Source of the DNA: Halarcobacter sp.
GTDB taxonomy: Bacteria > Campylobacterota > Campylobacteria > Campylobacterales > Arcobacteraceae
Assembly: GCA_963676565.1 (NCBI GenBank)
Contig: OY781089.1
Coordinates: forward strand, 2,144,399 to 2,208,398
Direction: 5' to 3'
DNA length: 64,000 nt
A model generated the notes under the pieces. The model saw nothing but the letters and a program-made list of their open reading frames with translations, ran no database searches and was not told the origin of the DNA. Made by a program: the position numbers and the translations under genes. Below are positions 31,356-51,309 of the stretch, piece by piece. Each line of letters opens with the position of its first letter. The stretch's first letter is position 1.

Positions 31356-31430
31356 TGGATGGGGTAACAGGATTCGAACCTGTGAATGACGATACCAAAA
31401 ACCGTTGCCTTACCACTTGGCGATACCCCA
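31356..31430 (-). tRNA. tRNA-Gln(UUG)
   Basis: Reverse complement TGGGGTATCGCCAAGTGGTAAGGCAACGGTTTTTGGTATCGTCATTCACAGGTTCGAATCCTGTTACCCCATCCA. Confidence 0.96.
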
Positions 31431-41636: not shown

Positions 41637-41840
41637 TTAAAATTCAAATCCACCGCCAGAGCCTTTATTCATAGACTCATAAACAGCAATGACATATTTT
41701 TTTCTAAGCTCACATTCAAAAAATTTGTTACAGGGTATACATGAGTTTAGATTATTAGATTTTTGACATTGATTAAGTTCTTCAATCTTTAAATCAAGCT
41801 TTAAATCCCATTCATCTTTTTGTACATTCTCAGCTTGCAT
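41637..41840 (-). CDS. Conserved small Cys-rich protein
   Basis: CQ...SCIPC...C...[15 protein letters not shown]; overlaps the fbp stop. Confidence 0.7.
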
Positions 41841-42678
41841 ATTGTTTGTAAACTTCTTTTACTTTTTCAACTTCTGATTTAGAACCAAAAAAACATGGTG
41901 TAGTATCATGAATATGAGTTGTTTCAACTTCTAAAACTCTTTTAAAACCATCAGTAGCAGCTCCACCAGCTAACTCATAAACAAATGCAAAAGGGAATAC
42001 TTCAAATAATTGTCTTAATTTACCTTTTGGTCTATCAGTAGTTGCAGGATATGAAAATAATCCTCCACCTTTTAATAGTATTTGATGTAAATCTGGAACC
42101 ATACCACCTGAATATCTTAAATAATATCCTTCATCAAACATCTCTTTTAAAAGTTTTTTATGTTCTGTTGGCCAAAACATTTGTGTTGAACCAGTTGCAT
42201 TTAAATTACCTTTAAAATCAAGTTTTATATCTTGAACATAGTGGAAAATACCACCATTTAATCTATACATTTTTACAGAATCTTCTGCCGCAACTACCAT
42301 TTCTATTCTTGGTCCAAAAACAACATATATCGCAGCAATAATATTTTTTGATGTAAAGTCATTTTTATAAATACCATAAATTGAACCAACTGAAAGGTTA
42401 ACATCAACTAATGATGAACCATCCAATGGGTCATAGGCAATTAAATATTCACCATCTTCATGTAAAGGAACAATTGCTTCTTGCTCTTCACTAACAATCT
42501 CTTTAATAGAAGGAATTTCTTTAAAAATATTTTCTATAATAATATCACTTGCAATATCAAGTTTTAATTGTGTGTCACCAGTAGAGTTTTCATTTTCACT
42601 TTTTCCAGTATCACCTTTATCAATAACTTTTTTAATTTCAATACTTGCTTTTTTTATTGCTTCAATTATATCGTTCAT
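41830..42678 (-). CDS. fbp: Class 1 fructose-1,6-bisphosphatase
   Basis: [27 protein letters not shown]. Confidence 0.95.
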
Positions 42679-43199
42679 TATACCCTCTTTGCATTTTTTT
42701 CAATCCATGAGATAATCTCTTCTGGATTATTTAAGTCTAGTTTCTCAATATTGTCAGGAATATCATCAGCACTTATTGTTGAATCATGAGCAATGGCATC
42801 TGTAACTGGAAAATAAGTCTCATCAAGTTTATTTCTAAAGACTGAAATTCTTGGGAGAGGTAGAGTCTTTAGACCCTCAACCAATAAATAATCAAAATCA
42901 CCAAAAAGTTCAATCATCTCATCAATAGTTGATGTAGCTTGTTTAAATAAAGTTGTTCTTGTGGGACTCACAACTGCAACATTTGCACCTGTTTTTGTGA
43001 ACTTATCACTATCTTTCCCTTCTTTATCAAATATAGCTTTATCCTTTGGATCATGCTTTACAATACATACTTTATAACCATTTTGATTTAGTATGTTTGA
43101 GACATTAACTACTAATGTAGTTTTACCACTATTTGAAGGCCCGCTAAATGCAACAGCTAGTTTCTTATAATTCTTATCCATGAGGCTGATTTTACCCAA
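42678..43199 (-). CDS. mobB: Molybdopterin-guanine dinucleotide biosynthesis protein B (start may be at 43181)
   Basis: [25 protein letters not shown]. Confidence 0.92.
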
Positions 43200-43261
43200 A
43201 CCATGGTTAAAGTAACTTTAGTGTAAAATTCCAATTATTAAATATTTGGAGATATACTTTA

Positions 43262-43750
43262 ATGAGAAAAAATATATTAATTTTTACTTTAATAATTTCA
43301 TTTGTTTTTATTGGATGTTCAAAAAGAAATGATTCATTAAAAGGTTTTAAGAATAGTAATCAAAGTCCTATGGCAATACAATATACTAAAAAAAGAGATT
43401 TGTCTTATAATGATTCACTAAAAGTTATGGTTTTTGCTACATATTTAAATAAAGCTTCTAAAAAATATGAAACTAATAAATTAGATAGCTTTGTTGTTGG
43501 AATTCATATTACAAACCAACAAAACCATGATTTAATTAAAAATAGATTTGAAGTTACATTGAATGGTGACAAACCAAAAACTATGGTTAAACTTCCAAAT
43601 GATTCAGATATAATTGAAATTATTCCACTAAAGAATCAATGGGCAGAATATTATTTAATACATTTTGATAACAAAAAAGATATTAAAAAACTAAATTTAA
43701 AAATTACTCATCCTGTTTATGGTGTGGTTTCATTAGAGTTTCTAAAATAG
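43262..43750 (+). CDS. Lipoprotein
   Basis: Signal peptide with lipobox FIGC. Confidence 0.75.
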   Translation: MRKNILIFTLIISFVFIGCSKRNDSLKGFKNSNQSPMAIQYTKKRDLSYNDSLKVMVFATYLNKASKKYETNKLDSFVVGIHITNQQNHDLIKNRFEVTLNGDKPKTMVKLPNDSDIIEIIPLKNQWAEYYLIHFDNKKDIKKLNLKITHPVYGVVSLEFLK

Positions 43751-45143
43751 ATTGTAAAGATATTTTATCTTTACTTTTTTTTGTTAAAGAATTATAGTAT
43801 AAAACATAATACATTAAAAAGTTTTTCTTTTCTTCTAAATTATCTTTTAGTAATAGTTCTAAAGAGATAAATGGTTCTAAATCTTTTAATTCTATTTCTT
43901 TAAAATCTATATTTACTCCATCGAAAGCAATAGATAGTAATAGAGGATTTTTATATCTATTTTCAATATTTGAAATATATATATTTACAAATTTTAAATT
44001 TTCATCAAGATTAAAATAGTTTATTTCTTCATTTTCATCCTCTAAAGCTAGTAGATCAGAAATTGAATTGATTAAATCAACTTTTAATTGGAAAATACCA
44101 ACTTCAAAGTTCTTAGAAATCATGTTTGTATCAAAATTTGATTTAGTTTTAGCAAGTGAGTAAAGTAGGGCGATTCTATCTGTTTTGTACTTTTTTTTCA
44201 GTGAATCTATATTTTCAATTTTAGTTAATAATTTATCTATATCAACATTTTTTTTAGCAATTTCAATTGCATTATATGAATAAAAATTTAATTCATTGCT
44301 ATTTAAAAGATTGTTTAAATAAGTTTCATCTTTAGTGATTTTATATAGCCAAAAATAAATTTTGTCTATCTCATATTGTGAATTTGTTTTTAAAAGGGCA
44401 TTATTAAAATAAATATATGCTTTATTGAAATTATTTACTCTTGTATTGCTTAGTCCAAGGAAAAATGATGATGTAAAATTTAAGTCTTGATCATCAATTT
44501 CTAAAAGTGAATTATTTAAATTGTTTAATTTAGGATCTGTTAGGGAAACTTTTAAAAACTGATTGAATTTTTCCTTATCTTTAAAAATCTTTTCAAAACT
44601 TCTTTTTGGTAATTTATAATTAAAATATTTTTGTCTAAATTCTTTATTAACATTTAAAAATATATCATAAAAGTTGTCTTTTTTTTGAATAATTAGTTTT
44701 GTAAAAGGGATAGCAGCTGAGATAACTTTTAGTTTGTTTGAAAAGTTCGGGTATTTATCCTTGACTTTTTGTTTAATTAAATCAAACTCAATTGCAGATA
44801 GTCTTGAAAGTTTTTTTGTATTTAAACCTAAAACAATACAATCTGCATATGTATTTATTAAATCTTTTACATCCATATTCATACATTGTGCAACCGCAAA
44901 AGTTTCATCATGATTATATTTTTTAGCAAAGTTAAAAAATAATTCATTGTTCATATTATCAATTAAAGATAAACTTTTATAAGCTATATCAGAATTGATA
45001 TCTTTTTTTAATAATTCATTTATATAAAAATCTCTTTTTATACCTTTTTGAATCGATTTAATCTCTTCAAACTCTTTTATAAAGTCGTTACTATTTGCAT
45101 AGGAAAATATTGAAAAGAAACATAAAAAAAGAATGTATCTCAT
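43704..45143 (-). CDS. Soluble lytic transglycosylase homologue with a degenerate active site
   Basis: Signal peptide, helical repeats (FWLY..T, FYS), SLT-like domain LLYSLAKTKSNF...GIFQL; syntenic position between the lipoprotein and yggT. Confidence 0.65.
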   Translation of the reverse strand: MRYILFLCFFSIFSYANSNDFIKEFEEIKSIQKGIKRDFYINELLKKDINSDIAYKSLSLIDNMNNELFFNFAKKYNHDETFAVAQCMNMDVKDLINTYADCIVLGLNTKKLSRLSAIEFDLIKQKVKDKYPNFSNKLKVISAAIPFTKLIIQKKDNFYDIFLNVNKEFRQKYFNYKLPKRSFEKIFKDKEKFNQFLKVSLTDPKLNNLNNSLLEIDDQDLNFTSSFFLGLSNTRVNNFNKAYIYFNNALLKTNSQYEIDKIYFWLYKITKDETYLNNLLNSNELNFYSYNAIEIAKKNVDIDKLLTKIENIDSLKKKYKTDRIALLYSLAKTKSNFDTNMISKNFEVGIFQLKVDLINSISDLLALEDENEEINYFNLDENLKFVNIYISNIENRYKNPLLLSIAFDGVNIDFKEIELKDLEPFISLELLLKDNLEEKKNFLMYYVLYYNSLTKKSKDKISLQSILETLMKPHHKQDE

Positions 45144-45421
45144 TAGATTCCCATAAATAATCTACCAAGAAATGTTTCTAGAAAAATTAATACTAAAATC
45201 ACAATTAATGGAGCCAAGTCCATTCCACCAAATACAGTAGGAATAAATCTTCTAACAAACGCATAAGCAGGTTCTGTTAACCTATAAAGCATTTGGACAA
45301 TAGGGTTATATGGATCAGGTCTTACCCAAGATAATAAAGCTGAAATAATAATAACCCATTTATAAAGTGTAATAACAGATAGTATTACTGTAAAAACCGA
45401 TCCTAAAAATGCATCCATCAT
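45143..45421 (-). CDS. yggT: YggT family membrane protein
   Basis: IISALLSWV.PDPYNPIVQ.L..LTEP, GGMDLAP. Confidence 0.92.
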   Translation of the reverse strand: MMDAFLGSVFTVILSVITLYKWVIIISALLSWVRPDPYNPIVQMLYRLTEPAYAFVRRFIPTVFGGMDLAPLIVILVLIFLETFLGRLFMGI

Positions 45422-46692
45422 TTTATAATTTCTCCAATATAATTTTTAATTAATGGGTAAATATCATTCATATCTGGCCCATTTTCAGTTCCTAAAATTA
45501 GGTATGAGATTGTTTTTTTAATCTCAGTTTCTTTTAAATTAGTGTTGTTTTCAATATATTTTTTTAATTCTTCAAAATCATTGAAAAAAGGTGCACTTTT
45601 CATACAACTTTTTAACTCTAAAATTTCATCTTTTAAAGTACTATTTTCTTTTTTAGTTTGAAAAATTAAAGTTATTTTTTCTTCTAGTTTTTTTAGTGTA
45701 CTAACTTCATTTAAAAATAGCTTTGCAAGACTTCCTATATCAGCATCAGCATAAGATAAGATTTTTGATAATCTAAGGTTATCCATTAATTCAATATGTT
45801 TTTTATTTATCTTTTTTAATTCATCAATATCAAAAACAATATTATCACTAATAATGTTTTTTACATCAAAAGATTTAATAGTATCTTCTAAAGAAACAAT
45901 TTTATCATCAACCTTTAAACTTATAATCATTAAATAGTTCGCAATAGCACTTGGTAAATACCCTTCATCAATAAACCACTTTAGATTATTTAAAGATTCA
46001 TTGTTTGATATTTTGGGTAAATGTAAATAATCTATTTTAGTATCATATGATAATAAAGTTCTTGTGTAAGTTTCTCTTGCAGAGTTTGTTAACTCTTCTT
46101 CATTTGAAACAACAGTTGAGATATTATATAACATATCATCAATTGCACTTGCATAAACTTTTTTAGGCATTTTATCATGTGCTAAAGCAATATATGAATC
46201 TATTTCATAAGGTTCAAAAACAATCTCACCTTTTAATAAATCATTAATAGTTACTTTTTTATTTGGTTCTTTAATTCTAACTGTAAAAGGAGCATTGCAA
46301 TTTAAAACAGTTTCATCAGATAAAGTTGAGCAGAAACCATCATATCTAATAGGTTTATTTTCTTTTTCTGCTTCTTCTTTTAGTTCATTTAGTTTTTCAT
46401 CTGAACAAAAACATGCAAATGCATCTTTTTTAGCCATTAATTGCATGATGATTTTTTGATGATATTTTAAATTTTCACTTTGATAAACTACTCTTTCATG
46501 GTCAATTGAAAATAGATTTAAGAGTTCAAGTATCTCTTTTTCTATATTTTCAATATTGTTTTGTTTATCTGTATCATCAATACTAATTAATAAAGGTTTG
46601 ACTAATTTTTTTGATAAGATATAATTAAATATCCCAATTCTCAAAGTTTCAATATCTAAATGTTTAGTTGCGCTAACTCTAAATCTTACCAA
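45418..46692 (-). CDS. gltX2: Glutamyl-tRNA synthetase 2-like protein with degenerate HIGH/KMSKS motifs
   Basis: DDTD, YQSEN, AFACFCS...YDGFC, DDML, YLHLP and GYLPSAIANY match GluRS, but the catalytic motifs are altered. Confidence 0.75.
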   Translation of the reverse strand: MVRFRVSATKHLDIETLRIGIFNYILSKKLVKPLLISIDDTDKQNNIENIEKEILELLNLFSIDHERVVYQSENLKYHQKIIMQLMAKKDAFACFCSDEKLNELKEEAEKENKPIRYDGFCSTLSDETVLNCNAPFTVRIKEPNKKVTINDLLKGEIVFEPYEIDSYIALAHDKMPKKVYASAIDDMLYNISTVVSNEEELTNSARETYTRTLLSYDTKIDYLHLPKISNNESLNNLKWFIDEGYLPSAIANYLMIISLKVDDKIVSLEDTIKSFDVKNIISDNIVFDIDELKKINKKHIELMDNLRLSKILSYADADIGSLAKLFLNEVSTLKKLEEKITLIFQTKKENSTLKDEILELKSCMKSAPFFNDFEELKKYIENNTNLKETEIKKTISYLILGTENGPDMNDIYPLIKNYIGEIIK

Positions 46693-46693
46693 A

Positions 46694-47986
46694 CTATTTC
46701 CTTATAATAGAAAAAGATAATTTGTTGATCTCTTTGTGAGATTTAATATACTGATTTAAATCTTCAAGCTTTAAAGATTCAATTTTTTCAAGTTCTTTTT
46801 GAGAATGATCTTGTTCTAAACCTCTATAATAGTTTGTAAAAGCTCTATTTAATCTACTTGATAAAGTTTCAGTTCTTAAAGGCTCGCTACCTAATAAAAA
46901 CTTTTTAGCAGATTCTAGTTCATCTTCAGTAACACCATTTTTAGCAAAATCCTTAACTAACTCTTTCACAAGTTTAACAGCTTCATTTGCACTTTCATTT
47001 TTTGTTTGTAAGTAACCCGTAAAATAAGAGTGTGATTTATTTTGAGATACATACCCATATGCTGAGTAAGCAAGTCCTCTTTTTACTCTAATCTCTTCCA
47101 TAAGTCTAGAACCAAAACCACTTCCACCTAAAATAAAAGAAGCAACTTTAGCCATATATGAATTTTCATCTTTTACATCAACATAAAAAGGACTACCAAA
47201 ATAAATATAGGCTTGTTGTGTTTCTTTTTTTACAGTTTTAGTTTCTGCTTCTTCATTTACTTTTATTTTTGTTAATTTGTTTTTATTCTTATTGTTAAGA
47301 GTTTTAATAAGGCTTTTTATTTTAACTTCAATCTCATCAAAGGTAAAATCTCCACCAACAACAACAATAAGATTGTTTAAATCTAAAGCCTTATCTAAAA
47401 AGTTTTCTATATCATTTAATTTAATTTTTGAAATTGAATCAATTGTTCCTGATGAAGGATTAGCCAACGCTGTATCTTTAAAGATAATTTTTTTTAAGTT
47501 TTTACTAGCTTGGTAATCATAATCATTCTCTTTTCTTTTTAAAGAACCACTTGTAATTGTTTTAATCTTTTCTAAAACTTTTTCATCATAATTAGGATCT
47601 TCTAAAAGATTTTTTAAAAGTTTTAAAGCTTTTTCATGAACATCTTTAATAGAAGACAATTCAATTACAAAAGTTTCAAAACCAGTTGAAGCACTTAATG
47701 ATATAGCTGAGTTTTCTAACTTCTCTGCAAATTTTGTACTACCTAATTTTTTTGTACCTTCATTTAAAAGTTTAGCTGAAGTTGAAGCTAGGCCACTTAT
47801 ATTATCTTGAATATATCCAGAGTTTTTAAATACTAATTGTAAGTTTAATATTGGAAGATTTTTATTCTTTTCAAATACTACTGGAACACTTACTCCTTTT
47901 ATATTTATATGCTTTATAGTAGCAGCCATTAAAAATCCTTGTAAAAATAAAAATATTAATAAAATTTTTGAAAAATGTGTTTTCAT
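46694..47986 (-). CDS. M16 (pitrilysin) family protein, non-catalytic type
   Basis: LGGSGFGSRLMEEIRVKRGLAYSA; no HxxEH motif. Confidence 0.85.
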   Translation of the reverse strand: MKTHFSKILLIFLFLQGFLMAATIKHINIKGVSVPVVFEKNKNLPILNLQLVFKNSGYIQDNISGLASTSAKLLNEGTKKLGSTKFAEKLENSAISLSASTGFETFVIELSSIKDVHEKALKLLKNLLEDPNYDEKVLEKIKTITSGSLKRKENDYDYQASKNLKKIIFKDTALANPSSGTIDSISKIKLNDIENFLDKALDLNNLIVVVGGDFTFDEIEVKIKSLIKTLNNKNKNKLTKIKVNEEAETKTVKKETQQAYIYFGSPFYVDVKDENSYMAKVASFILGGSGFGSRLMEEIRVKRGLAYSAYGYVSQNKSHSYFTGYLQTKNESANEAVKLVKELVKDFAKNGVTEDELESAKKFLLGSEPLRTETLSSRLNRAFTNYYRGLEQDHSQKELEKIESLKLEDLNQYIKSHKEINKLSFSIIRK

Positions 47987-47992
47987 AAAAGG

Positions 47993-49063
47993 TTAAAACC
48001 TCTCTAATATCTCATATGCAGTGTTTCTCTTTGCTGGATTCTCTCCAACATCTCTAATAAGTTGTATCATCTCATCTTGATTCATACAATTAGTTGCACC
48101 TGCTGCTGCAACTACATTTTCTTCCATCATAGTTGAACCTAAGTCGTTTGCTCCAAATTTTAAAGCCATTTGACCTATATAACTTCCTTGTGTAACCCAT
48201 GAACTTTGAATGTTAGGGAAATTATCTAAATAAAGTCTTGCTACTGCAAGCAATCTTAAATATCTATTTGATGATTGTGGTTTTAAATCAGGAATCTCTT
48301 CTTTTAATTGTGTGTTATCACTTTGAAAAGACCACATAATAAAAGCTCTAAAACCGCCACTTTCATCTTGAAGTTTTCTTATCATTTCCCAGTGTTCAAT
48401 AATCTCTTCATCAGTTTCAACTGTGCCAAACATCATTGTTGCAGTTGTTTTCATACCAATTGAGTGAGCTAACCTATGTATTTCAATCCACTCAGCAGCA
48501 TCTATTTTTTTAGGAGCTATTATATCCCTAACTCTATCACTTAGAATCTCAGCCCCAGCACCCGGAATAGAACTTAATCCCTTAGCTTGTAATCTTTTTA
48601 AAACTTCTAATTTTGAAATTTTTGATACTTTTGCAATAAAAGAAATTTCAATAGCAGAAAAAGAGTGTAGGGTGATTTGTGGGAATTTAGTATGAATATG
48701 TTCTACTAAATCTTCATAATAATCAATTTTTAAATTTGGATGAACTCCACCTTGCATAAGAATCTGAGTTCCACCAATTGCTAGTAGCTCTTCAATTTTT
48801 TTATCTATTTCATCATATGATAAAACATATGAATCATCATCTTTTTTGTGTCTATAAAAGGCACAAAACTTACAATCAACCCAACATACGTTTGTATAGT
48901 TAATATTTCTATCAACAACAAATGTTGTAACTTTTTTTGGATGTAATTGCTCTTTTCTTTGTGTTGCTAATTTTCCTAATTCAACTAAAGAAGCATTTTT
49001 TATTAAGTCTAATGCTTCTTCATTACTTAATCTTTTATTTGCATAATCTATTTTTTTAACCAT
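47993..49063 (-). CDS. mqnC: Dehypoxanthine futalosine cyclase
   Basis: DRNINYTNVCWVDCKFCAF, GAEIL, TATMMFG, SSWVTQG, GSTMMEENVV. Confidence 0.93.
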   Translation of the reverse strand: MVKKIDYANKRLSNEEALDLIKNASLVELGKLATQRKEQLHPKKVTTFVVDRNINYTNVCWVDCKFCAFYRHKKDDDSYVLSYDEIDKKIEELLAIGGTQILMQGGVHPNLKIDYYEDLVEHIHTKFPQITLHSFSAIEISFIAKVSKISKLEVLKRLQAKGLSSIPGAGAEILSDRVRDIIAPKKIDAAEWIEIHRLAHSIGMKTTATMMFGTVETDEEIIEHWEMIRKLQDESGGFRAFIMWSFQSDNTQLKEEIPDLKPQSSNRYLRLLAVARLYLDNFPNIQSSWVTQGSYIGQMALKFGANDLGSTMMEENVVAAAGATNCMNQDEMIQLIRDVGENPAKRNTAYEILERF

Positions 49064-51309
49064 TAGAATGTTGACCCCAGTGAGAATTCGAAGTTTGATA
49101 TATCATCAGTATCTTCATTATCAATTGGTTGTGCAAATATTAAAGTAAGTGGTCCAAATGGAGATACCCACTCAAATAAAGCACCAGTAGAAGATCTTTG
49201 AATTTCATCAAAACTATCTTCTCCAATCATACCATAATCATAAAATATTCCCCATCTCATTTTCATATCATCAATTAACGGAAAACTAACTTCAAATGAG
49301 TTTGCTGCCATCATTTTATATGGATCCTCTCTATATCCATCTTCGTGAGCAGGGAATGAATAAGACTTATACCCCCTTAATGATTTAGTCCCACCTAAAT
49401 ATAAAGAATCCCCTTGATTGATTTGTCCATTATCAATTAAAAGTTTTGCTTGTATTTTGTATCTAAAGATCCAATCTAAATCAAATCTATCCTCTAATGA
49501 ATAAAATGTTTTTAAATAAGATGAAGATTTAATATATTTTGAATCACCACCAAGTCCTGCATATTCTAAAGACGAACCAGCTTTAAACCCACTAGTTGGA
49601 AAATAAAAGTCATTAGTATTATCAAAGCTAACATAAGGTGTTATTGAACTAGTAATATAATCTTCATCAGTAAATCTATTTGCAGTTGGAACTGTTGATG
49701 TAGACTCATATGTATAATCTTCTGTAATTGAGTCAAATCTATATGTTAACCCCGCTCTTAAGTTTCTAATAATCTCACGACCAACAGAAACAGAAAAACC
49801 ATTTGTTTGTTTATCTAAATCATAAACATCATTATCTATCTCAGTAGTTTGAGCATGAATATCAATCTTCCCACTATATTTACTATCTCTAATTGCTGGA
49901 TTAGTAAGTGACATTGAAAAATCTTGTGTTTTTTCAGAGATATCTCCAGAAAATGAAAAACCAATACCTGAACCAAAAAGGTTTTTTTCATTAAGTGAAC
50001 CACTAACCATTGCTCCATCATATGAACCATATCCTCCACCAATGATAATATTACCTGTTGGGGCTTCTTTCACTTTTACAATTATATCCATTGTATCTGC
50101 TGAAACTCTTTTTTGTTCAATTGATACATCATCAAAGAATCCACTTCTTCTTAACTTATTAATTGAGTCATTATAATCAGTTTGATTGTATAAATCTCCT
50201 GGAGCTAGATAAACATTTCTTCTAATAACTCTATCTAATGTTCTACTATTTCCAGAAATTTTAACATCTCTAATTGTAACAATTTCTCCTGGGACTACAT
50301 TAAAAATGATATCTGCTGTACCATTTTTTTCATCTTTTTTTATATCATAGTTAACTTGTGTAAAAGCATACCCTAAATCTGCAACCATATTTTTAATATA
50401 ATTTGCATCACGTCTTAACATCTTTACATTAAAAACTCTGTCTTTTTTAAGTTTTAATTCTGGATAAATATCTTTTGGATCTAAAATCTCTTGGTTTAAA
50501 TAGATTGTAATTGAGTTAGTTTTATATTGAATACCTTCATCTATATAAAAGTCTAAATCAGCTTGATTTGAAGCAAAATCAACTTCTAAGAATGGATTTT
50601 GAACTTTCGCATCAAGATAACCGTTTTCATAATAAAGTTCTTGAATTCTTCTACTATCATATTTTAATTCTTCAGCTTTTAATTCACCATCATTAAATAT
50701 TGGTAACCAAGAAAGCATCTCTTGTTCTTTATTTGCAGTAACTTTTTCAAATTGACTTGATTCAAGGTTTTTAGAACCAAAATAATTAACTTTTTTAATA
50801 ACTATCTCATCACCTTTATTTACATTAAAAGTAACAGAAATAGCATCTTCACTCAAATTTTCTATATCAACTTCAACAACTGAATTAATATACCCTTCTT
50901 TTTCAAGCTCTTTTAAAAGAGCCTCTTTAGCATCTTTTATTAGTTTTGTAGAATACATTCTACCTTTTTTAATACCAATTTGATTTTTTAGTACTTCAAT
51001 ATCATCTTCTCTTTGTTTGTAGCCTGTTATATCTACATTAGCAATGGAAGGTTTTTCTTTGAAAAGAATTTTAAGTTTTCCATTATTAATTGATGCAGTA
51101 ATATCATCAAAATAGTTGTATTTATAAAACTCTTTTATTGCTTTATTAACCTTATTTGGGTCAAGTTCTTCACCAATTCTAATTCCCAAAGTGTCATTTG
51201 CAATACTTGTAGAGATCTTTGTTAGGTTTACATATTCAATTGAAGTAATTTGCTCAGCTTGAAGTAATGTAGCTAAAGCCATTGAAAATAAGATACTTTT
51301 TCTTTTCAC
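49063..51309 (-). CDS. bamA: Outer membrane protein assembly factor (probable GTG start at 51309)
   Basis: POTRA repeats, GNSRTLDRVIRR, LGGTKSLRGY, WVSPFGPL, C-terminal Phe. Confidence 0.95.
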   Translation of the reverse strand: MKRKSILFSMALATLLQAEQITSIEYVNLTKISTSIANDTLGIRIGEELDPNKVNKAIKEFYKYNYFDDITASINNGKLKILFKEKPSIANVDITGYKQREDDIEVLKNQIGIKKGRMYSTKLIKDAKEALLKELEKEGYINSVVEVDIENLSEDAISVTFNVNKGDEIVIKKVNYFGSKNLESSQFEKVTANKEQEMLSWLPIFNDGELKAEELKYDSRRIQELYYENGYLDAKVQNPFLEVDFASNQADLDFYIDEGIQYKTNSITIYLNQEILDPKDIYPELKLKKDRVFNVKMLRRDANYIKNMVADLGYAFTQVNYDIKKDEKNGTADIIFNVVPGEIVTIRDVKISGNSRTLDRVIRRNVYLAPGDLYNQTDYNDSINKLRRSGFFDDVSIEQKRVSADTMDIIVKVKEAPTGNIIIGGGYGSYDGAMVSGSLNEKNLFGSGIGFSFSGDISEKTQDFSMSLTNPAIRDSKYSGKIDIHAQTTEIDNDVYDLDKQTNGFSVSVGREIIRNLRAGLTYRFDSITEDYTYESTSTVPTANRFTDEDYITSSITPYVSFDNTNDFYFPTSGFKAGSSLEYAGLGGDSKYIKSSSYLKTFYSLEDRFDLDWIFRYKIQAKLLIDNGQINQGDSLYLGGTKSLRGYKSYSFPAHEDGYREDPYKMMAANSFEVSFPLIDDMKMRWGIFYDYGMIGEDSFDEIQRSSTGALFEWVSPFGPLTLIFAQPIDNEDTDDISNFEFSLGSTF

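What the first reader, a model, noticed from the sequence alone, without database searches (positions are those of the whole stretch)
45418..46692. Full-length GluRS2 pseudo-enzyme: catalytic motifs erased while the scaffold is kept
Seen, against the class I GluRS consensus: RFAPSPTG-x-HIG becomes RFRVSATKHLDIE, PTYN becomes PKKV, VIRGEDH becomes VVSNEEE, and the KMSKR loop is deleted (HLPKISNNESL). The Zn knuckle (CFC...YDGFC), YQSEN, DDML and the anticodon-binding domain persist in an uninterrupted 424-aa ORF. Known: in Helicobacter and relatives GluRS2 misacylates tRNA-Gln for the GatCAB route, and inactive synthetase paralogues (e.g. HisZ) can gain new roles. Inference: this lineage charges tRNA-Gln another way (GlnRS or a non-discriminating GluRS1). 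The selective loss of ATP/Glu-binding residues suggests retention as a tRNA-binding or regulatory protein.
Basis: partly seen in the sequence, partly recalled or inferred. Interest (0 to 1): 0.65.

Follow-up and report, generated by a model that had tools for sequence, protein, structure and literature searches.

The report
Dead GluRS2 kept after GlnRS arrival
This gene is the local copy of a tRNA-charging enzyme (GluRS2) that has lost every residue needed for catalysis yet is still kept by selection. The same holds in most environmental relatives, apparently because a horizontally acquired GlnRS took over its job.

Summary
It scores as a GluRS (Pfam PF00749, E=3.7e-37) but falls below NCBI's gltX cutoff (243.8 vs 289.95 bits). 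HIGH, the KMSKS loop and the glutamate-binding Tyr, Asn and Arg are all gone. The full GluRS fold is still predicted (pLDDT 91.3; TM 0.80-0.86 to solved bacterial GluRS).

It sits in the same locus (mqnC-M16-gltX2-yggT-slt) as the intact GluRS2 of Arcobacter sp. L, so it is the positional ortholog of GluRS2.

It is not decaying. Five orthologs are all uninterrupted, with dN/dS 0.14-0.19 (95% CI 0.12-0.27).

It is not lineage-specific. Of 187 family members, 163 lack KMSKS and only 24 are fully intact. Loop lengths differ between clades, and both states occur inside one family and even one genus.

A highly conserved YqeY-fused GlnRS exists across the phylum. It lies directly upstream of a dead copy in one contig. 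A glnS contig in the window's own sequencing run has the same depth as the window.

The retained role is unknown. Lost basic residues and a more acidic protein argue against simple tRNA binding. I found no description of this family in the literature searched.

The parts
45418..46692 (-). Full-length catalytically dead GluRS2 ortholog (424 aa; stop codon at 45418-45420)
   Evidence: AF2 model pLDDT 91.3. Foldseek TM 0.80-0.86 to bacterial GluRS. dN/dS 0.14-0.19.
46699..46703 (-). Shine-Dalgarno AAGGA, 8 nt upstream of the TTG start at 46690-46692; lies inside the end of the upstream M16 gene
   Evidence: Identical in L001, L002, L003 and L005; the same AAGGA and TTG are found in Arcobacter sp. 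L (L127), which has an intact enzyme.
46645..46686 (-). Residues 3-16, RFRVSATKHLDIET: the degenerate PSPTG...HIGN (HIGH) region
   Evidence: Almost invariant within the window clade: only 3 variable columns in residues 1-89.
46330..46413 (-). Residues 94-121, CFC...YDGFC: the retained Zn-knuckle insertion
   Evidence: C94, C96 and C121 are 96-97% conserved among dead members.
46156..46167 (-). Residues 176-179, PKKV (was PTYN). The Tyr that binds the glutamate side chain (T. thermophilus Tyr187) is now Lys
   Evidence: The mapping to T. thermophilus residues rests on my own knowledge of the 1J09/1N78 structures.
46093..46113 (-). Residues 194-200, VVSNEEE (was VIRGEDH). The Arg205 equivalent is lost; this is the most variable stretch within the clade
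45994..46023 (-). Residues 224-233, HLPKISNNES: the site of the 10-residue deletion that removed [10 protein letters not shown] (the KMSKS loop)
   Evidence: Loop length ranges from 11 to 25 residues among dead members.
45421..45792 (-). Residues 301-424: the all-helical anticodon-binding domain, retained
   Evidence: Highest relative conservation, dead versus intact: ratio 0.76.
45143..45421 (-). yggT (PF02325). Its start overlaps the stop of the dead gltX2 by 4 nt (ATGA). This gene pair is conserved across the phylum
46694..47986 (-). M16-family peptidase, the upstream operon neighbour (1-nt spacer)
31356..31430 (-). tRNA-Gln(UUG), the former substrate of GluRS2. It has U1-A72, G2-C71, G3-C70, G10, U32, G37 and U38, with CCA encoded
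   Evidence: The U32/U38/G37 pattern matches the epsilon tRNA-Gln listed for GlnRS-containing genomes in PMC3927822, Additional file 8.

Best explanation
The ORF is the positional ortholog of Campylobacterota GluRS2 (gltX2). In Helicobacter this enzyme makes Glu-tRNA-Gln for the GatCAB amidotransferase.

In this lineage, and in most environmental Campylobacterota, a horizontally acquired YqeY-fused GlnRS now charges tRNA-Gln directly. That freed GluRS2 from catalysis.

The catalytic parts then decayed in a recognisable order: first the KMSKS loop, then HIGH, then the glutamate-binding Tyr/Asn/Arg. The window clade is at the far end of this series.

The protein itself did not decay. It is still translated from a conserved SD/TTG start, is predicted to fold as a complete GluRS, and evolves under purifying selection.

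Many lineages lost catalysis separately, and all of them kept the gene. The kept role therefore most likely predates the loss: a second, non-catalytic function of GluRS2, such as binding a partner like GatCAB, GlnRS, YggT or a tRNA.

Shown: orthology, motif loss, fold, selection, breadth of the family, and presence of GlnRS in the phylum and very probably in this genome.
Inferred: the causal link to GlnRS, and the nature of the retained function.
For: Motif loss.

Below the GluRS equivalog cutoff.

Orthology by synteny: mqnC-M16-gltX2-yggT-slt-...-mobB-fbp-metG in Arcobacter sp. L (intact enzyme) is the same order as in the window.

Fold: pLDDT 91.3, pTM 0.87; TM 0.80-0.86 to solved bacterial GluRS.

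Selection: omega is 0.14-0.19 for pairs with dS of 0.25-0.42. The bootstrap 95% CI is 0.12-0.27. Neighbouring genes give 0.03-0.10. All five orthologs are uninterrupted.

Family breadth: 163 of 187 members lack KMSKS. 100 positions are at least 80% conserved among 138 dead members.

Repeated loss:
- The Arcobacteraceae clade holds 18 KMSKS-bearing (intact) and 104 KMSKS-less members.
- The window protein is 53% identical on average to both states within the family, and 34-36% to either state outside it.
- Loop lengths range from 11 to 25 residues.
- Malaciobacter mytili is intact while M. halophilus is dead.

Order of decay: 15 members have HIGH without KMSKS; only 1 has KMSKS without HIGH.

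GlnRS:
- A 752-aa GlnRS-YqeY lies immediately upstream of a dead copy in L128.
- Its homologs are 76-83% identical across Sulfurovum, Sulfurospirillum, Halarcobacter, Arcobacter, Poseidonibacter and others, with HIGH and VMSKR intact.
- In run X1, which holds the window at 100%, a 53-kb AT-rich contig at depth 123.8 carries a glnS about 82% identical to a Campylobacterota glnS. The window's own contigs there have depths 125.7 and 134.7.
- 6 of 10 epsilon genomes carry GlnRS plus 'GluRS2' plus gatCAB (PMC3927822).
Against: - No whole-genome check was possible. The glnS contig is linked to the window's genome only by matching depth and AT-rich flanks.
- The presence of gltX1, gatCAB and asnS in this genome is untested.
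- I could not build a species-level table of GlnRS presence against GluRS2 state. The named species in my GlnRS and GluRS2 lists do not overlap.
- PMC3927822 states that epsilon GluRS2 carry H-phi-G-N, including in GlnRS-positive genomes. So some GlnRS-positive species may keep at least HIGH.
- No transcription data: four RNA runs gave no reads.
- The number of independent losses (up to 24) comes from a neighbour-joining tree and is an upper bound.
- The retained function is not identified.
Confidence: 0.7

Rival explanations
1. Neofunctionalised enzyme or ligand binder. The remodelled former active-site half has acquired a new ligand or a new chemistry, so this is more than a passive scaffold.
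For: - Within the window clade the former catalytic half is the more constrained part (omega 0.10-0.16 vs 0.15-0.35 for the C-terminal half).
- Residues 1-89, including the mutated HIGH region, have only 3 variable columns among 5 orthologs.
- Arg3 (the Arg5 equivalent), the DDTD motif, DDM and the Zn cysteines stay conserved.
Against: - Across independent dead lineages the former pocket positions take many different residues: H13 becomes N, D or S; G15 becomes E, N or S; G197 becomes E, D, S or N. That looks like relaxation rather than convergence on a new site.
- No new domain or motif has been gained.
Confidence: 0.15
2. Non-catalytic tRNA-Gln binder. It would hold, chaperone or shield tRNA-Gln, for example from mischarging by GluRS1, or hand it to GlnRS or GatCAB.
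For: - The full tRNA-binding architecture is kept: acceptor-binding insertion with Zn knuckle, stem-contact fold and anticodon-binding domain.
- The anticodon-binding domain shows the best relative conservation in dead versus intact members (0.76).
- Motifs such as GxLPxAIxNYL and FDxxxLxxIN are more than 90% conserved.
Against: - Dead members are more acidic (median net charge -14 vs -5).
- Basic residues invariant in intact GluRS2 are lost: R45, R116 and R171. K398 in the anticodon-binding domain is mostly Glu or Asp.
Confidence: 0.25
3. Relic in slow decay. The gene has no function, and the ORF stays open only by chance or because its translation is needed for the overlapping downstream yggT.
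For: - Selection is 2-3 times more relaxed than on neighbouring genes.
- The stop overlaps the yggT start in every locus examined.
- The neighbouring SLT gene also looks catalytically dead in this clade, which suggests general relaxation.
Against: - The 95% CI of omega, 0.12-0.27, excludes 1.
- All five orthologs are intact, and 138 divergent dead homologs are full length with 100 positions at least 80% conserved.
- Translational coupling would constrain only the reading frame, not the amino-acid sequence.
Confidence: 0.05
4. Still an active synthetase that uses non-canonical motifs.
For: - Arg3 (the Arg5 equivalent), the DDTD motif and the overall fold persist.
Against: - HIGH, the whole KMSKS loop and the Tyr187, Asn191 and Arg205 equivalents are all replaced or deleted.
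- The score is below the equivalog cutoff.
- By established class I synthetase enzymology, HIGH and KMSKS stabilise the transition state of adenylate formation.
Confidence: 0.03

Closest known systems
Helicobacter pylori GluRS2 (tRNA-Gln-specific glutamyl-tRNA synthetase; Skouloubris 2003 and Salazar 2003 cited from memory; PMC2777447)
   Same: - Same protein family and length class (about 420-440 aa).
- Same genomic slot in Arcobacteraceae (gltX2-yggT-slt).
- Same fold.
- The intact family members carry the GluRS2-type HIGN motif.
   Different: - All catalytic motifs are lost.
- It co-occurs with GlnRS rather than replacing it.
- It cannot be assumed to charge tRNA-Gln.
HisZ (HisRS paralog, regulatory subunit of ATP-phosphoribosyltransferase) and other non-catalytic synthetase paralogs (review PMC9437257)
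   Same: - A synthetase-derived protein that has lost aminoacylation but is kept under selection for a non-catalytic role.
   Different: - HisZ has a known partner (HisG) and lacks the anticodon-binding domain.
- Here the full-length architecture is kept, no partner is known, and the loss has happened repeatedly in situ rather than once after a duplication.
GluQRS / YadB (GluRS paralog that glutamylates queuosine of tRNA-Asp)
   Same: - Derived from the GluRS catalytic domain. NCBIfam hits TIGR03838 at 87 bits; Foldseek TM 0.54-0.55.
   Different: - YadB keeps HIGH and KMSKS and lacks the anticodon-binding domain.
- This protein is the opposite on both counts.
Thermotoga maritima second GluRS, reported as inactive on tRNA-Glu and tRNA-Gln (as cited in PMC3927822)
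   Same: - A second GluRS copy in a genome that may not aminoacylate.
   Different: - That copy keeps the canonical motifs (HφGG per PMC3927822).
- It belongs to a different GluRS2 lineage.
- Its inactivity is an in vitro observation, not motif erasure.
Co-occurrence of GlnRS and GluRS2 in epsilon-proteobacteria (Dasgupta and Basu 2014, PMC3927822)
   Same: - The same phenomenon seen at genome level: 6 of 10 epsilon genomes carry YqeY-GlnRS, 'GluRS2' and gatCAB.
   Different: - Those authors examined only HIGH and suggested that GlnRS is the non-functional partner.
- The data here point the other way. GlnRS is 76-83% conserved with intact motifs, while GluRS2 has lost its motifs.

Membership tests
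Bacterial glutamate--tRNA ligase (class Ib; TIGR00464 gltX_bact) | Score at or above the curated equivalog cutoff | tested here: not met
   243.8 bits against a cutoff of 289.95.
Bacterial glutamate--tRNA ligase (class Ib; TIGR00464 gltX_bact) | HIGH signature (H-phi-G-x) in the Rossmann fold | tested here: not met
   The aligned residues are D-I-E-T.
Bacterial glutamate--tRNA ligase (class Ib; TIGR00464 gltX_bact) | KMSKS loop (K-[MLI]-S-K-[RS]) | tested here: not met
   A 10-residue deletion removes [10 protein letters not shown].
Bacterial glutamate--tRNA ligase (class Ib; TIGR00464 gltX_bact) | Glutamate-binding Tyr187, Asn191 and Arg205 (T. thermophilus numbering, from memory of 1J09) | tested here: not met
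   PTYNYAC becomes PKKVYAS, and VIRGEDH becomes VVSNEEE.
Bacterial glutamate--tRNA ligase (class Ib; TIGR00464 gltX_bact) | Overall five-domain GluRS fold, including the helical anticodon-binding domain | tested here: met
   AF2 pLDDT 91.3. Foldseek TM 0.80-0.86 to 1gln, 1j09, 2cfo and 3afh over the full length.
Bacterial glutamate--tRNA ligase (class Ib; TIGR00464 gltX_bact) | Glu-AMP formation and tRNA glutamylation | not testable with these tools
   Needs ATP-PPi exchange and aminoacylation assays.
Campylobacterota GluRS2 (gltX2) orthologous group | Same genomic position as a bona fide GluRS2 in a related genome | tested here: met
   mqnC-M16-gltX2-yggT-slt...mobB-fbp-metG is shared with Arcobacter sp. 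L AP012048, which has intact motifs.
Campylobacterota GluRS2 (gltX2) orthologous group | Closest sequence relatives are GluRS2-type proteins (HIGN, about 430 aa) rather than GluRS1 | tested here: met
   52-58% identity to Arcobacteraceae members, including intact ones. It falls inside a clade holding both states. It is about 30% identical to H. pylori GluRS1 (6b1p).
Campylobacterota GluRS2 (gltX2) orthologous group | tRNA-Gln-specific glutamylation feeding GatCAB | not testable with these tools
   Predicted to be lost, given the erased motifs.
GluQRS / YadB | Truncated protein: catalytic domain only, no anticodon-binding domain, motifs intact | tested here: not met
   The anticodon-binding domain is present (residues 301-424) and the motifs are lost. 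TIGR03838 gives 87.4 bits against a cutoff of 276.7.
Non-catalytic synthetase paralogs (pseudo-synthetases, HisZ-like in logic) | Catalytic residues lost while the protein stays under purifying selection | tested here: met
   Omega 0.14-0.19, CI 0.12-0.27. 138 full-length dead homologs.
Non-catalytic synthetase paralogs (pseudo-synthetases, HisZ-like in logic) | A defined partner or regulatory target | not tested
   No partner has been identified. The only invariant neighbour is yggT.

The most novel reading that the evidence does not exclude
GluRS2 of Campylobacterota has always had a second, non-catalytic job. One possibility is acting as a subunit or assembly factor of a GatCAB or GlnRS-YqeY complex. 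Another is working with the translationally coupled membrane protein YggT. If so, the dead copies are a natural, many-times-repeated separation-of-function experiment. They would define a new phylum-wide class of full-length pseudo-synthetase with a specific partner.
Probability: 0.25. Interest if true: 0.8.

Novelty: new variant of a known kind. Interest (0 to 1): 0.62.

Why it matters
- It reverses a published inference. Where GlnRS and 'GluRS2' coexist in epsilon-proteobacteria, the displaced, inactive partner appears to be GluRS2, not GlnRS.

- It is a clean natural example of an essential translation enzyme being replaced by a horizontally acquired one. The replaced gene is not lost. It is converted again and again into a conserved pseudo-enzyme.

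- That repetition gives a handle on a hidden second function of GluRS2, which could also matter in Helicobacter and Campylobacter.

- Public annotation calls these proteins 'glutamate--tRNA ligase'. [quoted passage not shown]

Tried and rejected
- **Genome-contig scan for GlnRS.** I used the E. coli-type motif FPPEPNGYLHIGHAK in AT-rich codons. It returned 120 loci, none from Campylobacterota.

- **Metagenome-contig scan with a Campylobacterota GlnRS alignment.** Only one locus (L129, 73% identity) was of the right kind, so I could make no adjacency statistics.

- **Restricted loci.** A negative control, meaning a run of a species with intact GluRS2 tested for absence of glnS, was therefore not possible.

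- **Species-level cross-match of GlnRS presence and GluRS2 state.** I tried this through source names. The named species in the two lists do not overlap, and most sequences are unnamed metagenome proteins.

- **RNA evidence.** Four RNA-seq runs carrying the same organism label as DNA runs X2-X5 gave zero reads on 41800-49100. Transcription is untested.

- **Exact-protein look-up of the window's product.** It is not on record.

- **GlnRS in the window itself.** I checked all large ORFs. They are PolA, NrdD, GlyS, MetG, BamA, an M3 peptidase, PckA and OadAB. None is GlnRS, GluRS1 or GatCAB.

- **Similarity of the upstream M16 peptidase to the EF-P-modification proteins YfmF/YfmH.** It scores 93.8 bits against a cutoff of 285. 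I judged this to be generic M16 similarity and not a lead.
Full report
**1. The observation**

window:45418-46692 (minus strand) is an uninterrupted 424-aa ORF with a TTG start. An AAGGA Shine-Dalgarno site lies 8 nt upstream, inside the end of the preceding M16-peptidase gene. The ORF's stop overlaps the start of the downstream yggT by 4 nt.

Pfam finds the class I Glu/Gln synthetase catalytic domain (PF00749, E=3.7e-37). NCBI's bacterial GluRS equivalog model scores 243.8 bits, below its 289.95 cutoff.

- PSPTGDMHIGN becomes VSATKHLDIET.
- PTYN becomes PKKV.
- VIRGEDH becomes VVSNEEE.
- A 10-residue deletion removes [10 protein letters not shown].

Mapped onto the T. thermophilus enzyme (from my own knowledge of 1J09/1N78), the lost residues are HIGH, KMSKS, and the glutamate-binding Tyr187, Asn191 and Arg205. 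The Zn-knuckle cysteines, YQSEN, DDML and the C-terminal helical domain persist.

**2. What the gene is**

An AlphaFold2 model built on 74 homologs is confident throughout (mean pLDDT 91.3, pTM 0.87, no segment below 50). It superposes on solved bacterial GluRS over the full length (TM 0.80-0.86 for 1gln, 1j09, 2cfo, 3afh). The scaffold is therefore a complete GluRS.

The neighbourhood is mqnC - M16 peptidase - this gene - yggT - slt-like - ... - mobB - fbp - metG. This is the same as in Arcobacter sp. L (AP012048). There the gene in this slot is a 433-aa GluRS2-type enzyme with HIGN, PTYN, RGEDH and KKMSKR intact, and even the same AAGGA and TTG start. The window gene is thus the positional ortholog of GluRS2, not a stray paralog.

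**3. Decay or retention?**

Four orthologous proteins (86-96% identical), on six contigs from other samples, carry the same motif losses and no frameshift.

Nei-Gojobori dN/dS results:

| Comparison | dN/dS |
|---|---|
| This gene, pairs with dS 0.25-0.42 | 0.14-0.19 |
| This gene, bootstrap 95% CI | 0.12-0.27 |
| mqnC, M16, yggT, bamA, mobB, fbp, metG | 0.03-0.10 |
| Former catalytic half, within the clade | 0.10-0.16 |
| C-terminal half, within the clade | 0.15-0.35 |

Selection is somewhat relaxed but clearly purifying. Residues 1-89, including the mutated HIGH region, show only 3 variable columns. The ex-RGEDH stretch (residues 195-204) is the most variable.

**4. Scope**

The phenomenon is far wider than the window.
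- Among the 120 best database hits, all Arcobacteraceae-type, only a minority keep all motifs.
- An exhaustive search of 50%-identity representatives adds dozens of full-length clusters (375-437 aa) with no KMSKS and no HIGH. Some also have a shortened Zn insertion.
- In a combined set of 187 members, 24 are fully intact and 163 lack KMSKS. 15 keep HIGH but not KMSKS, and only 1 shows the reverse. 53 have lost HIGH, KMSKS, the Tyr and the Arg, as the window protein has.

This suggests an order of decay: KMSKS, then HIGH, then the glutamate pocket.

The dead state is not one paralog lineage.
- The Arcobacteraceae clade holds 18 KMSKS-bearing (intact) and 104 KMSKS-less members.
- The window protein is equally similar to both states within the family (mean 53%). 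It is much less similar to either state outside it (34-36%).
- The remnant loop ranges from 11 to 25 residues.
- Within one genus, Malaciobacter mytili is intact and M. halophilus is dead.

A neighbour-joining tree gives up to 24 all-lost clades. I treat that as an upper bound.

Among 138 dead members, 100 positions remain at least 80% conserved.

**5. How tRNA-Gln is charged instead**

Dasgupta and Basu (PMC3927822) reported that 6 of 10 epsilon-proteobacterial genomes carry a YqeY-appended GlnRS of Deinococcus-Thermus type together with 'GluRS2' and gatCAB. They looked only at HIGH and proposed that GlnRS is the non-functional one.

My results point the other way.
- In contig L128, a 752-aa GlnRS-YqeY gene lies immediately upstream of a dead GluRS2, followed by yggT and slt.
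- Its homologs are 76-83% identical across Sulfurovum, Sulfurospirillum, Halarcobacter, Arcobacter acticola, Poseidonibacter, Candidatus Marinarcus and unnamed Arcobacteraceae. Their HIGH and VMSKR motifs are invariant. That is much stronger conservation than for the GluRS2-like protein across the same range (35-55%).
- For the window's own genome: run X1 holds the window at 100%. Its window contigs have depths 125.7 and 134.7. A 53-kb contig at depth 123.8 carries colinear pieces about 82% identical to a Campylobacterota glnS over roughly codons 27-547. Its flanks are AT-rich and read ...KENKYQEVIT before the RFPPEPNG motif. Other glnS-bearing contigs in that run have depths 6.8-36.7 and GC-richer flanks, so they belong to other organisms.

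I conclude that the window's organism very probably has GlnRS. Binning by depth is not proof.

The window contains tRNA-Gln(UUG) with U1-A72, G2-C71, G3-C70, G10, U32, G37 and U38. This is the pattern listed for the epsilon genomes with GlnRS. The window has no glnS, gltX1 or gatCAB.

**6. What the retained protein does**

This is not resolved.

Points in favour of a tRNA-related role:
- The whole tRNA-binding architecture is kept.
- The anticodon-binding domain retains the most conservation in dead relative to intact members (ratio 0.76, against 0.59 for the Rossmann C-terminal half).

Points against simple tRNA binding:
- Dead members are more acidic (median net charge -14 vs -5, pI 5.2 vs 5.9).
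- Residues invariant in intact GluRS2 but relaxed in dead ones include the catalytic motifs and also R45, R116, R171 and K398. K398, in the anticodon-binding domain, is mostly Glu or Asp.

Many lineages lost catalysis separately and all kept the gene. The most economical reading is that the retained role already existed in active GluRS2 as a second, non-catalytic function. The only invariant genomic partner is yggT, whose start overlaps the stop of this gene in every locus examined, active or dead. Translational coupling alone cannot explain selection on the amino-acid sequence.

**7. Comparison with what is known**

In logic it resembles HisZ and other non-catalytic synthetase paralogs. It differs in keeping the full-length architecture, in having no known partner, and in arising repeatedly in situ.

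It fails the defining tests for a GluRS (cutoff, HIGH, KMSKS, glutamate pocket). It is the reverse of YadB/GluQRS, which keeps the motifs and lacks the anticodon-binding domain.

I found no paper describing motif-less GluRS2. A 2022 review of synthetase duplicates lists only YadB for GluRS (PMC9437257). Public annotation names these proteins glutamate--tRNA ligase.

**8. Verdict**

It needs widening to a phylum-wide family and tempering on tRNA binding.

The main gaps are a genome-wide GlnRS-by-state table, any expression or biochemical data, and the identity of the retained function.

Noticed in passing
window:43704-45143 (-): This 479-aa protein is the positional ortholog of the SLT lytic transglycosylase that follows yggT in Arcobacter sp. 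L (L127:9581-11242, PF01464) and in L128 and L211. In the window clade the catalytic Glu of the ES motif is Lys (AKTKSNF vs ARQESHF). GVMQIMP has become GIFQLKV and AYNGG has become AFDGV. About 70 residues are deleted and no Pfam or NCBIfam model hits. It is still an intact ORF with dN/dS about 0.18. This looks like a second dead-but-kept enzyme next door.
   Followed up: partly
window:45418-45421, and L001, L002, L127, L128, L209, L210, L211: The stop codon of gltX2, active or dead, overlaps the start of yggT (ATGA or similar) in every Campylobacterota locus examined. Upstream genes vary. The gltX2-yggT pair is the conserved unit.
   Followed up: partly
L128:5615-9233: A YqeY-fused glnS (752 aa) sits directly upstream of a dead gltX2 (410 aa, with a shortened Zn insertion) in a JGI metagenome contig. 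This adjacency was not seen in the window, L127, L129 or L209-L211.
   Followed up: partly
runs X2-X5 and X25: DNA runs labelled with one organism ('organism B') hold 83-91% of the window's sampled words. That organism's other runs are poly-A or oligo-dT RNA-seq, so it is probably a eukaryote. The bacterium may be host-associated or a frequent contaminant of that host's samples. Close relatives also turn up in salt-marsh and wastewater metagenomes.
   Followed up: no
L002:5352-7630: In the closest relative's contig, bamA is called as two ORFs (368 aa with POTRA, 342 aa with Omp85). It is one 748-759-aa gene in the window and in L001. This is either a frameshift or an assembly error.
   Followed up: no
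window:24928-26265 (+) and window:26276-27472 (+): Two adjacent ORFs of 445 and 398 aa have no Pfam or NCBIfam match.
   Followed up: no
window:30909-31430 (-): A tRNA cluster, Gln(UUG)-Met-Met-Thr(UGU). By my count the tRNA-Gln has U at the discriminator position (G73 in E. coli, from memory) and encodes CCA. I did not compare it with relatives.
   Followed up: partly
family-wide: Within the genus Malaciobacter, M. mytili has a fully intact GluRS2 and M. halophilus has a dead one. This pair would suit a direct test of the link with GlnRS.
   Followed up: no
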